IMG/VR virus record: IMGVR_UViG_2751185956_000002
Span: 1-12,399 of that record
Length of the DNA: 12,399 nt
Source of the DNA: a virus
Lineage: Duplodnaviria; Heunggongvirae; Uroviricota; Caudoviricetes
Direction: 5' to 3' (one strand)
Shown here: positions 983 through 2,306 of the stretch, one piece after another
How the letters are laid out: the number at the start of each line of letters is the position of its first letter
Numbering within the stretch: position 1 is the stretch's first letter
Made by a program: the position numbers and the translations under genes
The notes under the pieces: generated by a model
Databases searched by the model: none
The model's input: only the letters and a program-made list of their open reading frames with translations
What the model was told of the DNA's origin: nothing

Positions 983-999
983 ATTACCTTTCGGGTAAT
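983..999. promoter_or_regulatory. Operator-like palindrome A: ATTACC-TTTCG-GGTAAT
   Basis: Perfect 6-bp inverted arms with a 5-bp spacer. TTGCAA (1000-1005) lies immediately to the right, so on the minus strand the palindrome forms the 17-bp spacer of a possible leftward promoter pointing at the tailspike gene (-10 would be TATCTA, weak). Same core as sites B and C. Confidence 0.45.
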
Positions 1000-1074
1000 T
1001 TGCAAAACGTGCTGGATAGCAAACAAATTATTTGTTACTGTATAAACATACAGTTATTGCATGGAGAAGATAAG

Positions 1075-1335: not shown

Positions 1336-1380
1336 TTGCAATTACCAAATGGAGTGCTTATATTTACCTTTGCGGTAAAT
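1336..1380 (+). promoter_or_regulatory. sigma70-like promoter (-35 TTGCAA 1336-1341, 17-bp spacer, -10 TATATT 1359-1364) with operator-like palindrome B (ATTTACC-TTTGC-GGTAAAT, 1362-1380) over the predicted start site
   Basis: Hexamers and spacing read directly. The palindrome begins inside the -10, the classic arrangement for repression. Palindrome B is itself nested inside a larger inverted repeat, GGAGTGC (1351-1357) / GCACTCC (1388-1394). Confidence 0.4.
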
Positions 1381-1491
1381 TTACATCGCACTCCTCTTGT
1401 GCCATAGTAATCGGGCACTGGCAAAATCCAGTGCCGGGATTGGTCTCCCGGATTACTAAGTGGCGCATACCACGCCAGACGTGGTTTTTTT
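1371..1491 (+). ncRNA. Candidate small structured RNA or attenuator-like leader (~120 nt) running from promoter B to an intrinsic terminator
   Basis: No credible ORF with an RBS in this stretch. It contains an 8-bp outer stem (TAGTAATC 1405-1412 / GATTACTA 1451-1458) enclosing a perfect 8-bp hairpin (GGCACTGG-CAAAAT-CCAGTGCC, 1414-1435) and a second hairpin (GGGA-TTGGTC-TCCC, 1436-1449, extendable to CCGGGA/TCCCGG), then the terminator at 1469-1491. Boundaries are inferred. Confidence 0.25.
1469..1491 (+). terminator. Rho-independent terminator-like hairpin
   Basis: Stem ACCACG / CGTGGT with loop CCAGA, immediately followed by a run of seven T (1485-1491). The stem is only 6 bp, so strength is modest. 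Confidence 0.45.
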
Positions 1492-1649
1492 ATGCGTATA
1501 GCACAGTCATGCCAGAATTATGGTGGGCTGAATGGGGGTCCGAAAGGACGCCGGTACCACTTAGGCCGGTAAGACCAACTCCGTTCAGTTCACCACCATC
1601 TGATTGGTCTCAGCGGTGGTGATGTAATTCGCTAAGTGGAGACGCCATC

Positions 1650-2306
1650 ATGAACGCTCAACTCATCCCCGTATTCAACGGCACTATATCTAACGAAACA
1701 GCCCTACTTTGTAATGCCCGCGATCTGCACGCTTTTTTAGGTGTTAAAAAGGTGTTTGCAGCATGGATTACAAATCGCATATCAGAATACGAATTCATTG
1801 AAAATCAAGACTATATTTTGCTTTCCAATTTGGGAAAGCAAACATCTGGTAGAGGCGGCCACAACCGCAAAGAGTACCACCTCACCCTTGATACAGCCAA
1901 AGAGCTGGCGATGGTCGAGCGTAACGAAAAAGGTCGTCAGGTACGACGCTACTTCATTGAATGCGAGAAACGTTTAAGACAACAAGAAACAAAAGTGGAG
2001 AAGGTCTTGTCAGGCTTCATGCCCGCCATTATGGAGGCGATCAAGCTGGAAGACAAAAAAGAATACAGTGCCCCGCTGAAGCCCGGCTACCGCAGCCTGA
2101 TTCATTCGCCGTCTGGTGTTCTCGGCCTGACGGAGAACTCACTGCTGATGAATCTGCTGAACCAGTTACAGGAAGACGGGCACGACGTATCGGGCGCGGC
2201 GGCGGAGCTGACCACCATGTTCTGCTACATCGTCGGTGTGAGCAAATGCCTGCGTGATATCCAGACGCACGCGGAGTACATCAACGACAAGGCAGGGTTC
2301 TTCTGA
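1650..2306 (+). CDS. Phage antirepressor, 218 aa (AntA-like N-terminal domain plus a C-terminal domain shared with the 85-aa ORF)
   Basis: ATG 1650 with GGAG 8 nt upstream; stop TGA 2304-2306. The N-terminal ~110 aa (LIPVFNG, then [76 protein letters not shown]) match my recollection of the AntA/AntB antirepressor family; not database-verified. Confidence 0.7.

What the first reader, a model, noticed from the sequence alone, without database searches (positions are those of the whole stretch)
1351..1491. Highly structured intergenic region between the two ant-related genes: candidate small RNA or attenuator
Within ~140 nt there is a nested inverted repeat around operator B (GGAGTGC ... GCACTCC, 1351-1394), a multi-stem element (8-bp outer stem 1405-1412/1451-1458 enclosing two hairpins at 1414-1435 and 1436-1449) and a terminator (1469-1491). 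Promoter B (1336-1364) would start transcription near 1371, giving a terminated RNA of ~120 nt with no credible ORF. Immunity regions of P22-type phages are known to encode small regulatory RNAs (sar), so a trans- or cis-acting RNA regulating the antirepressor is plausible. The alternative is a leader/attenuator, but the terminator lies ~160 nt upstream of the antirepressor start.
Basis: partly seen in the sequence, partly recalled or inferred. Interest (0 to 1): 0.55.

Follow-up and report, generated by a model that had tools for sequence, protein, structure and literature searches.

The report
Known IsrK/C4 antirepressor RNA switch

Summary
The hairpins, the terminator and the inverted repeats are all present and fold better than shuffled sequence. 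Rfam identifies them. Window 1415-1491 (+) is a full-length match to isrK (RF01394, 67.7 bits, cut-off 50). Window 1516-1600 (+), outside the finding, is a full-length C4 antisense RNA (RF01695, 61.2 bits, cut-off 45). The window is about 99% identical to Escherichia phage phiv142-3 (Uetakevirus), where this spacer is unannotated.

Fourteen other phage loci carry the same order: promoter, isrK, short gap, C4, antirepressor gene. They include phiV10-type phages, APSE-2, Stx phages, phiP27, a P1-like phage, a Gifsy-like Salmonella phage and a Vibrio phage.

Two single-stranded patches of C4 (a', b') are complementary to two sites inside IsrK (b1, a1). They are also complementary to identical sites in the ant leader (b2, a2), and a2 overlaps the ant Shine-Dalgarno. 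These three-way matches change together from lineage to lineage.

This is the P1 immI (c4) / Gifsy-1 IsrK module. The sRNA is probably 77 nt, made from a conserved promoter at 1380-1408, not about 120 nt from "promoter B". It is unrelated to P22 sar.

Verdict: already known family, low interest.

The parts
1346..1399 (.). Extended palindromic operator. Core TTACCTTTGCGGTAA at 1364-1378, inner arms 1359-1368/1374-1383, outer arms 1346-1357/1388-1399. It abuts or overlaps the -35 of the isrK promoter and lies just downstream of promoter B.
   Evidence: I2, I6. TTACC-N5-GGTAA occurs 3 times in the window against 0.16 expected; in the phiV10-type locus L003 the same site is a 23-nt-arm palindrome.
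1336..1364 (+). A possible upstream promoter that would give a longer isoform of about 121 nt. Its function is untested.
   Evidence: 9 of 12 matches. Conserved in 3 of 4 Uetakevirus loci and replaced by different sequence in EC.W1-9.
1380..1408 (+). Probable isrK promoter: -35 TTTACA 1380-1385, 17-nt spacer, TG-extended -10 CATAGT 1403-1408. Predicted start is about G1415.
   Evidence: The -10 box (CTATAnT consensus) lies at the same distance from the RNA 5' end in all 15 loci. It is invariant in the four Uetakevirus loci.
1415..1491 (+). IsrK-family small RNA, 77 nt. Hairpin 1 is 1415-1434 (loop CAAAAU). Hairpin 2 is 1435-1450 with site b1 UUGGUCU (1440-1446) in its loop. A linker carries site a1 CUAAGUGG (1456-1463). 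The intrinsic terminator is 1469-1485 plus a U-run to 1491.
   Evidence: Rfam RF01394, 67.7 bits (cut-off 50), model positions 1-77 of 77. Fold. Hairpin covariation. Direct repeats b1=b2 and a1=a2 (D2, D5).
1463..1497 (+). Helix bracketing the terminator: GCGCAU 1463-1468 pairs with AUGCGU 1492-1497. It can form only in read-through transcripts.
   Evidence: fold of 1451-1500; a 6-9 bp helix in the same register in 15 of 15 loci, with compensatory differences between lineages; shuffle controls, per-locus fraction 0.004-0.19.
1516..1600 (+). C4 antisense RNA. A long closing stem encloses two hairpins. Patch a' CCACUUAG (1557-1564) is in the loop of hairpin 2. Patch b' AGACCAA (1572-1578) is in the single-stranded junction.
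   Evidence: Rfam RF01695, 61.2 bits (cut-off 45), full length. Fold -41.2 kcal/mol, z = -5.5. Consensus structure with 12 of 27 pairs compensatory. No promoter-like site between 1491 and 1516.
1600..1622 (+). Site b2 (GAUUGGUCUC 1602-1611, identical to b1) followed by GGUGGUGA (1615-1622). The latter can pair with the 3' arm of C4 (UCACCACC 1590-1597) and so present b2 in a loop.
   Evidence: D2, I1, I10. (fold of 1586-1626, -17.1 kcal/mol, z = -3.5). The GGUGGUGA-like block is present downstream of C4 in all loci printed.
1632..1652 (+). Site a2 (CUAAGUGG 1632-1639, identical to a1) overlapping the ant Shine-Dalgarno (GGAG 1638-1641), with the ant start codon at 1650-1652.
   Evidence: D5, I9. 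Sequence. Cross-locus table.
1650..2306 (+). Antirepressor gene, 218 aa (AntA/AntB N-terminal domain). This is the regulated target.
   Evidence: Pfam PF08346 AntA, E = 4e-26. PHROG 377 'anti-repressor Ant', E = 3e-66. Annotated as putative anti-repressor Orf8 in phiv142-3.

Best explanation
The finding is the IsrK element of a P1-immI / Gifsy-1-type RNA switch that controls the phage antirepressor.

Proposed mechanism:
1. A sigma-70 promoter (1380-1408), flanked by a palindromic repressor operator, starts transcription at about G1415.
2. Most transcripts stop at the moderately strong intrinsic terminator (1469-1491). This yields a 77-nt IsrK-like sRNA.
3. A fraction of transcripts reads through. 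That produces one RNA containing IsrK, the C4 RNA (1516-1600) and the ant message. There is no separate promoter-like site for C4.
4. C4 is presumably excised from this RNA, as in P1. It exposes two single-stranded patches, a' and b'.
5. These patches pair with b2 (1604-1610) and a2 (1632-1639) in the ant leader. Because a2 covers the Shine-Dalgarno, ant is not translated.
6. IsrK carries exact copies of both target sites: b1 in the loop of hairpin 2 and a1 in the linker. It therefore pairs with the C4 sequence, in cis within the read-through RNA and in trans as the free sRNA.
7. When free IsrK is in excess it competes with the ant leader for C4 and so permits Ant synthesis and prophage induction.

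The element is thus both a trans-acting sRNA and a leader/terminator 'valve'.

Status of each step:
- Shown here: family membership, architecture, complementarity and covariation.
- Shown elsewhere for homologues: IsrK size and expression, read-through, activation in trans, C4 repression.
- Inferred for this phage: every functional step.
For: Identity and synteny:
- Full-length Rfam matches above the curated cut-offs for isrK and C4. There is also a sub-threshold match to c4-a1b1, the 'a1, b1 targets of C4' family, at 1402-1454 (39.9 against 46.7 bits).
- All 14 other phage loci examined have isrK, then an 18-58 nt gap, then C4, then an antirepressor or icd gene.

Structure:
- Hairpins 1 and 2 are 93.8% paired against 28-49% when the 3' partners are slid. 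Six pairs have double changes.
- C4 has 12 of 27 pairs compensatory.

Complementarity in the window:
- a' 1557-1564 is perfectly complementary to both 1456-1463 and 1632-1639.
- b' pairs with both 1435-1446 and 1604-1616.
- b1=b2 is a 10-nt exact repeat and a1=a2 an 8-nt exact repeat.

Three-way covariation across phages:
- There are 9 different b' sequences, and each has matching b1 and b2.
- The cognate b1 is the best or co-best target for all 15 C4 RNAs.
- Cognate a'/a1 helix score is 7.9 against 4.4 +/- 1.1 for non-cognate pairs. Cognate a'/a2 is 8.8 against 5.3 +/- 1.2. The cognate target ranks best or co-best in 13 and 14 of 15 cases.

Promoter and transcription:
- No promoter-like site lies between the terminator and C4.
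- The -10 box is conserved 6-7 nt upstream of the IsrK 5' end in all loci.

Literature:
- IsrK is a 77-nt sRNA (PMC2330248).
- The isrK promoter drives anrP by read-through. IsrK supplied in trans raises anrP translation about 140-fold and induces Gifsy-1. A processed RNA (STnc1160) downstream of IsrK is complementary to it (PMC4825925).
- C4 is needed for full repression of ant in P1 (PMC8198154).
Against: - There are no expression data for this phage or for any Uetakevirus. The one functional paper on the genus (PMC9782041) does not mention an RNA.
- In Gifsy-1 the activation was explained by a structural switch that opens the RBS of a small upstream ORF (orf45) translationally coupled to anrP (AUGA overlap). 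In this window the ORFs running through C4 end 28-78 nt before the ant ATG and differ in frame between relatives. That part of the published mechanism cannot be transferred.
- In Gifsy-1, constitutive STnc1160 made IsrK toxicity stronger, not weaker. This does not fit a simple 'IsrK titrates a C4 repressor' picture.
- The role of a1/b1 in P1 itself is, to my knowledge, not settled.
- RNAcofold predicted no net gain for C4+IsrK or C4+leader. That program cannot represent loop-loop (kissing) pairing, so the result is uninformative and not negative.
Confidence: 0.8

Rival explanations
1. P4 CI-like termination control. The main job of the a1/b1 sites would be to let C4 RNA bind the nascent transcript and enforce termination at 1469-1491 (and/or Rho-dependent termination further downstream). 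C4 would then autoregulate read-through, and the free 77-nt RNA would be a by-product.
For: Hershko-Shalev et al. note that IsrK is a structural homologue of P4 seqA, and that STnc1160 might act like CI RNA on the IsrK terminator. In the isolated 77-nt RNA the minimum-energy fold uses an alternative hairpin (UGGCG 1461-1465 / CGCCA 1473-1477). This hairpin overlaps both a1 and the 5' arm of the terminator. C4 binding to a1 could therefore favour the terminator.
Against: By inspection of the sequences printed, the alternative hairpin is not conserved. In phiP27-type loci it would overlap only 1 nt of the terminator arm. The conserved GGCG(C/A) after a1 is better explained by the helix that brackets the terminator. 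The a2 site sits on the ant SD in most loci, which points to translational control. This rival does not exclude the main explanation.
Confidence: 0.15
2. A purely cis-acting leader or attenuator. The hairpins only shape the 5' UTR of the ant mRNA, and the terminated product has no function in trans.
For: The long RNA 1415-1670 is predicted to pair a1 and b1 with a' and b' in cis. This matches the translationally inactive 'structure A' of Gifsy-1.
Against: In Gifsy-1 the short RNA supplied in trans activates anrP about 140-fold, and point mutants lose the trans activity. The exact duplication of the two target sites, with three-way covariation, is what a competitor or mimic would need.
Confidence: 0.08
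3. The main product is a ~120-nt RNA from promoter B (start near 1371) that includes the outer 8-bp stem enclosing the two hairpins.
For: Promoter B scores as well as the other promoter (9 of 12). The 121-nt RNA folds very stably with the outer stem (z = -5.85). Across 15 loci the outer stem is 66% paired, against 31-42% for slid controls.
Against: The 5' arm of the outer stem coincides with the conserved -10 box and discriminator of the isrK promoter. Its conservation therefore has another explanation, and 34% of cells are unpaired. Outside the Uetakevirus loci the region upstream of the -35 is unrelated. The Rfam model and the mapped Salmonella RNA begin at the base of hairpin 1. A minor longer isoform is not excluded.
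Confidence: 0.1
4. A P22 sar-type antisense RNA, or structure that matters only as DNA (operator palindromes), with no RNA function.
For: The 1346-1399 palindrome is very likely a DNA operator.
Against: No sar hit, and nothing on the minus strand even at E <= 5. The hairpins downstream of 1415 covary as RNA and end in a terminator. The operator explanation covers only 1346-1399.
Confidence: 0.02

Closest known systems
IsrK sRNA and the isrK-orf45(STnc1160)-anrP locus of Salmonella prophage Gifsy-1 (Rfam RF01394; Padalon-Brauch 2008, PMC2330248; Hershko-Shalev 2016, PMC4825925)
   Same: A 77-nt, three-hairpin RNA ending in an intrinsic terminator. It has a promoter at the same distance and sits directly upstream of a C4-like RNA and an antirepressor gene. 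The loop of hairpin 2 is complementary to the C4-like region. Full-length match above the Rfam cut-off.
   Different: No orf45-type ORF overlaps the ant start. Here a2 lies on the ant SD itself. No isrJ follows ant. The host phage is a phiV10/epsilon15-like podovirus, not a Gifsy lambdoid. The promoter is flanked by a palindromic operator. The a/b recognition sequences differ.
immI operon of phages P1 and P7: a1-b1 / c4 / a2-b2 / icd / ant (Citron & Schuster 1990, cited in PMC8198154; Rfam RF01695 C4 and RF03163 c4-a1b1)
   Same: The same order of upstream target copies, C4 RNA, downstream targets at an RBS, and antirepressor. C4 has no promoter of its own and lies on the transcript it regulates. 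A repressor-controlled operon. The P1-like locus L008 gives the same Rfam pattern.
   Different: There is no icd gene. The target RBS belongs to ant itself. The c4-a1b1 match is below its cut-off (39.9 against 46.7 bits). RNase P processing and Rho-dependent polarity, known for P1 from my own knowledge of the literature, are untested here.
P4 immunity: CI RNA with seqA/seqB/seqC (as discussed in PMC4825925)
   Same: A processed small RNA flanked by upstream and downstream complementary sites on its own transcript. IsrK has been called a structural homologue of seqA.
   Different: P4 acts by premature transcription termination and controls replication genes, not an antirepressor. No evidence here that the terminator responds to C4.
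P22 sar RNA
   Same: A small RNA in a secondary immunity region that controls an antirepressor.
   Different: sar is transcribed antisense to the ant start region. This RNA is co-oriented with and upstream of ant. No Rfam sar match.

Membership tests
IsrK (Rfam RF01394) | Covariance-model score at or above the curated gathering score, over the full length | tested here: met
   67.7 bits against 50, model positions 1-77 of 77, E = 5e-13.
IsrK (Rfam RF01394) | Two 5' hairpins, a linker and a Rho-independent terminator, with helices supported by covariation | tested here: met
   Hairpin 1: 6 of 7 pairs with double changes, 95% paired. Hairpin 2: 92% paired but only one-sided changes. A terminator hairpin is found in each of the 15 loci.
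IsrK (Rfam RF01394) | Genomic context: own promoter, directly upstream of a C4-like/STnc1160 region and an antirepressor gene, same strand | tested here: met
IsrK (Rfam RF01394) | Middle part of IsrK complementary to the downstream (orf45/STnc1160) RNA | tested here: met
   b1/b' and a1/a' (I4, I8). Cognate-specific across 15 loci.
IsrK (Rfam RF01394) | Small upstream ORF (orf45) translationally coupled to the antirepressor (stop overlaps start, AUGA) | tested here: not met
   ATG-ORFs through C4 end 28-78 nt before the ant ATG. Only the Gifsy-like locus L010 has the overlap. This is a feature of the Gifsy-1 mechanism and not of the RNA family.
IsrK (Rfam RF01394) | Expressed as a ~77-nt Hfq-associated RNA; partial read-through of its terminator | not testable with these tools
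   Needs Northern blot or RNA-seq of a lysogen. Indirect only: terminator dG is -7.6 kcal/mol, and C4 has no promoter of its own.
C4 antisense RNA / P1-type immI module (RF01695, RF03163) | C4 covariance-model match above the gathering score with the conserved three-helix fold | tested here: met
   61.2 bits against 45. Fold. 12 of 27 pairs compensatory.
C4 antisense RNA / P1-type immI module (RF01695, RF03163) | Two exposed patches (a', b') complementary to downstream sites a2/b2 that cover a ribosome-binding site | tested here: met
   a' 1557-1564 pairs with a2 1632-1639, which overlaps SD 1638-1641. b' 1572-1578 pairs with b2 1604-1610.
C4 antisense RNA / P1-type immI module (RF01695, RF03163) | Upstream duplicate sites a1/b1 | tested here: met
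   Exact repeats of 10 nt and 8 nt (D2, D5). The c4-a1b1 model itself scores below its cut-off (39.9 against 46.7).
C4 antisense RNA / P1-type immI module (RF01695, RF03163) | An icd gene between c4 and ant whose RBS is the target | tested here: not met
   No ORF between C4 and ant. The target is the ant RBS itself. The P1-like locus L008 does have icd.
C4 antisense RNA / P1-type immI module (RF01695, RF03163) | C4 released from the precursor by RNase P; repression of ant in vivo | not testable with these tools
   Experimental features. ARAGORN finds no tRNA-like gene here, which says nothing about RNase P.
P22 sar | Transcribed antisense across the ant translation start; Rfam sar model match | tested here: not met
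   No sar match at E <= 5 on either strand of 900-2500. The element lies upstream of ant and is co-oriented with it.

The most novel reading that the evidence does not exclude
IsrK may be a dedicated target mimic (decoy) for the C4 immunity RNA. The intrinsic terminator at 1469-1491 would then act as a valve that sets the decoy-to-repressor ratio. The lineage-specific a/b sequences (9 b' sequences and about a dozen a' sequences among 15 phages, apparently reassorted between relatives) would act as an RNA 'immunity code' that keeps co-resident prophages from cross-inducing. A conserved, covarying helix that brackets the terminator (1463-1468 / 1492-1497) and is absent from the Rfam model would be a functional part of the read-through isoform, for example a processing signal for C4. 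This would unify the P1 c4, P4 CI and Gifsy-1 IsrK literatures, which a recent review (PMC12197685) still lists as separate entries.
Probability: 0.3. Interest if true: 0.45.

Novelty: already known. Interest (0 to 1): 0.2.

Why it matters
It mainly matters for annotation. The same module occurs at 80% identity or more in 467 of 5,426 complete E. coli genomes, and in every row shown only the Ant CDS is annotated under it. It is also unannotated in phiv142-3. The one functional study of a Uetakevirus antirepressor does not mention RNA control. Recognising the module shows that antirepressor expression in phiV10/epsilon15-like phages is probably gated at three levels: a repressor operator, an RNA switch, and nearby a LexA-controlled paralogue. 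The cross-phage table of co-varying a/b sites is a ready-made design for specificity-swap experiments. None of this changes current understanding of the family.

Tried and rejected
- RNAcofold of C4+IsrK and C4+ant leader gave ddG of about 0. I rejected it as a test because nested-structure cofolding cannot represent loop-loop pairing. Loop-restricted duplex energies and helix scores were used instead.
- I looked for a conserved partner for the conserved hairpin-1 loop (CAAAAU) within each locus. None was found.
- I looked for a conserved coding ORF across C4, an orf45 equivalent. Frame and length are not conserved, and the 37-aa ORF 1509-1622 has no Pfam or PHROG match.
- A conserved antiterminator hairpin competing with the terminator is seen in the window but is not conserved by inspection. 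It is therefore not adopted.
- tRNA/tmRNA scan: nothing.
- The P1 genome paper could not be retrieved. Statements about RNase P processing, Rho polarity and the P51a/P51b promoters rest on my own knowledge.
- One Pfam call and two literature calls failed on input format.

Full report
**Observation**

- The repeat finder returns the outer inverted repeat 1346-1357/1388-1399 (it contains GGAGTGC...GCACTCC) and the inner palindrome 1359-1368/1374-1383.
- It also returns the outer stem 1405-1415/1448-1458 (11 nt, 91%) and hairpin 1 at 1414-1421/1428-1435 (all).
- Hairpin 2 is CGGGA-UUGGUC-UCCCG at 1435-1450.
- The terminator scan finds ACCACG-ccaga-CGTGGT at 1469-1485 followed by a T-run. The hairpin has dG -7.6 kcal/mol.
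- Promoter B (1336-1364) is found with 9 of 12 matches.
- Folding is better than chance: z = -5.85 for 1371-1491 and z = -2.9 for 1415-1491.

**What it is**

A scan of the whole window against Rfam at the curated thresholds gives exactly two matches, both on the plus strand and both full length.
- isrK (RF01394) at 1415-1491: 67.7 bits, cut-off 50.
- C4 antisense RNA (RF01695) at 1516-1600: 61.2 bits, cut-off 45.

A permissive scan adds a sub-threshold match to c4-a1b1, the family of "a1, b1 targets of C4 antisense RNA", at 1402-1454 (39.9 against 46.7 bits). It finds nothing resembling P22 sar and nothing on the minus strand. ARAGORN finds no tRNA or tmRNA.

The downstream ORF 1650-2306 is an AntA-domain antirepressor. 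The window is about 99% identical (100% over 1395-1660) to Escherichia phage phiv142-3, a Uetakevirus (phiV10/epsilon15-like podovirus). In that record the spacer between Orf7 and the "putative anti-repressor" Orf8 carries no annotation.

**Anatomy in the window**

C4 folds into its family structure: a long closing stem with two internal hairpins (-41.2 kcal/mol, z = -5.5). Two stretches stay single-stranded.
- a' is CCACUUAG at 1557-1564, in the loop of hairpin 2.
- b' is AGACCAA at 1572-1578, in the junction.

a' is perfectly complementary to CUAAGUGG, which occurs twice. One copy is at 1456-1463 (a1, in the IsrK linker). The other is at 1632-1639 (a2), where it overlaps the ant Shine-Dalgarno GGAG at 1638-1641, 8 nt before the ATG at 1650.

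b' is complementary to UUGGUCU, which also occurs twice within an exact 10-nt repeat GAUUGGUCUC. One copy is at 1438-1447 (b1, the loop of IsrK hairpin 2). The other is at 1602-1611 (b2, immediately 3' of C4) (D2, D5, I1, I4, I8, I9).

No promoter-like site lies between the IsrK terminator and C4. C4 and ant can therefore be transcribed only by read-through of that terminator.

**Comparative evidence**

A sensitive BLAST of 1395-1660 against phage genomes found 251 records. I fetched 14 diverse ones: three Uetakevirus relatives, APSE-2, several Stx phages (including VT2-Sakai), phiP27, a P1-like Punavirus, the Gifsy-like Salmonella phage SW-37 and a Vibrio phage.
- All 14 show isrK, then an 18-58 nt gap, then C4, then an antirepressor or icd gene.
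- In 12 of the 14 the isrK score is above the cut-off. The P1-like and Gifsy-like loci fall just below, at 49.5 and 46.2 bits.
- In an alignment of the 15 IsrK regions, hairpins 1 and 2 are 93.8% paired against 28-49% for slid controls. Six of the 7 pairs of hairpin 1 show double (compensatory) changes. Hairpin 2 is conserved, with only one-sided changes.
- C4 has 12 of 27 pairs with compensatory changes.

The strongest result is intermolecular.
- The 15 phages carry 9 different b' sequences, and in each phage b1 and b2 match its own b'. The cognate b1 is the best or co-best target for all 15 C4 RNAs.
- For the a sites, the cognate helix score is 7.9 (a1) and 8.8 (a2), against 4.4 +/- 1.1 and 5.3 +/- 1.2 for non-cognate pairs. 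The cognate ranks best or co-best in 13 and 14 of 15.
- In most loci a2 sits on the SD of the downstream gene.

This three-way covariation is what the P1 c4 model of target recognition predicts.

**Transcript boundaries**

All 15 loci have a -10-like box (consensus CTATAnT) ending 6-7 nt before the first base of hairpin 1, with a -35 about 17 nt upstream. In the window this is 1380-1408, giving a start at about G1415. That agrees with the Rfam model boundary and with the 77-nt size mapped for Salmonella IsrK (PMC2330248).

Across loci it is 66% paired against 31-42% for slid controls. That is suggestive, but it is confounded by promoter conservation and by the relatedness of the sequences, so I treat it as inconclusive. 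A longer isoform from promoter B is possible but unsupported outside this genus.

The GGAGTGC/GCACTCC repeat belongs to an extended palindromic operator. In the phiV10-type locus it is a palindrome with 23-nt arms. Its core, TTACC-N5-GGTAA, occurs three times in the window against 0.16 expected, each time in front of a transcription unit.

**How it most likely works**

Published experiments on homologues give the functional frame.
- In P1, ant is repressed by C1 at the operon promoter, and full repression also needs C4 antisense RNA (PMC8198154, citing Citron & Schuster 1990).
- In Gifsy-1, the isrK promoter drives the antirepressor gene anrP by partial read-through of the IsrK terminator, and the read-through RNA is translationally silent.
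- IsrK supplied in trans raises anrP translation about 140-fold and induces the prophage.
- IsrK hairpin-2 residues (G28, G31) pair with the downstream region.
- A processed RNA, STnc1160, arises from that region and is complementary to IsrK (PMC4825925).

Putting these together with the anatomy above, I infer the following for this phage.
1. The terminator partitions transcripts into a free 77-nt IsrK and a read-through IsrK-C4-ant RNA.
2. C4 blocks the ant RBS through a'/a2 and b'/b2.
3. IsrK carries identical a1/b1 sites, so it competes for C4, in cis and in trans, and allows Ant synthesis when it is in excess.

Family membership I put at about 0.95. The mechanistic sketch I put at about 0.6-0.7. 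It differs from the Gifsy-1 account in one tested respect. No orf45-type ORF is coupled to ant here: ORFs through C4 stop 28-78 nt upstream and are not conserved in frame. Control of the ant SD is therefore probably direct, as at the icd RBS in P1.

One published observation does not fit a simple titration model. Constitutive STnc1160 enhanced IsrK toxicity.

**Rivals**

- A P4 CI-like role of C4 in enforcing termination is not excluded and was suggested by the Gifsy-1 authors. The candidate antiterminator hairpin in the window is not conserved by inspection.
- A purely cis leader is contradicted by the trans activity shown in Gifsy-1.
- A sar-like antisense RNA is refuted.

**Novelty**

The family (IsrK, C4, a1/b1) is curated in Rfam. 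It has been known since 1990 (P1), with the IsrK work dating from 2008 and 2016. Rfam-based annotation of E. coli O157:H7 EDL933 already lists isrK (2 copies) and C4 (PMC5331693). The instance here is simply unannotated. Copies at 80% identity or more occur in 467 of 5,426 complete E. coli genomes, and in the rows shown only the Ant CDS is annotated under the match. I therefore rate it already known and of low interest.

**Residual points of modest interest**

- A conserved helix brackets the terminator.
- The a/b sets appear to reassort between relatives.
- A LexA-controlled paralogue of the Ant C-terminal domain lies next door.

Noticed in passing
window 1463-1468 and 1492-1497 (same register in L002-L015): A 6-9 bp helix brackets the IsrK terminator hairpin and U-run in all 15 loci. 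Arms differ between lineages with compensatory changes: GCGCAU/AUGCGU, GCACAUA/UAUGUGU, GCGACAG/UUGUCGU, CGAUAC/GUAUCG, GGCGAUA/UAUCGUC. The 3' arm lies after the U-run, so the helix exists only in read-through RNA, and it is not part of the Rfam isrK model. It may be a processing or structural signal of the long isoform.
   Followed up: partly
window 1038-1053 and 1075-1332: A perfect LexA-box consensus CTGTATAAACATACAG lies about 20 nt upstream of an 85-aa ORF. That ORF is a paralogue (42% identity over 74 aa, E = 3e-16) of the C-terminal domain of the 218-aa Ant and lacks the AntA domain. This suggests a second, SOS-controlled mini-antirepressor next to the RNA-controlled one.
   Followed up: partly
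window 984-998, 1364-1378, 2379-2393: Three copies of TTACC-N5-GGTAA (expected 0.16). Each lies just upstream of a plus-strand unit: the LexA-box ORF, isrK-C4-ant, and a 55-aa ORF at 2406-2573 (phrog_8607, unknown function). They are probably operators of the phage repressor.
   Followed up: partly
window 1590-1622: GGUGGUGA (1615-1622) is complementary to the 3' arm of the C4 closing stem (UCACCACC 1590-1597). The alternative hairpin would present b2 in its loop (-17.1 kcal/mol, z = -3.5). A similar block follows C4 in every locus. This suggests a conformational choice between folded C4 and a b2-presenting leader.
   Followed up: partly
window 1421-1428 (hairpin 1 loop) and homologues: The hairpin-1 loop GCAAAAUC is nearly invariant in many lineages (UAUAAAGC or AUUAAAAC in others). 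It has no complementary partner in C4, the leader or the first 400 nt of ant in any locus, so its function is unexplained.
   Followed up: partly
L002, L003, L004 compared with the window (table): The a and b recognition sites appear to reassort independently among close relatives. The window and EC.W1-9 share b (AGACCAA) but differ in a. Phi05_1387 combines the b of phiV10 (ACGCCAA) with the a of EC.W1-9. In Phi05_1387 the stem of IsrK hairpin 2 is degenerate, and in EC.W1-9 and Phi05_1387 a1 pairs with a' through a G-U where a2 is fully Watson-Crick.
   Followed up: no
E. coli genomes; L010 2317-2391: 467 of 5,426 complete E. coli genomes carry this module at 80% identity or more (73 records at 99% or more). 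No ncRNA feature appears under the match in the rows shown. The Gifsy-like Salmonella locus has isrJ after the antirepressor (101.7 bits), whereas the window has no isrJ.
   Followed up: no
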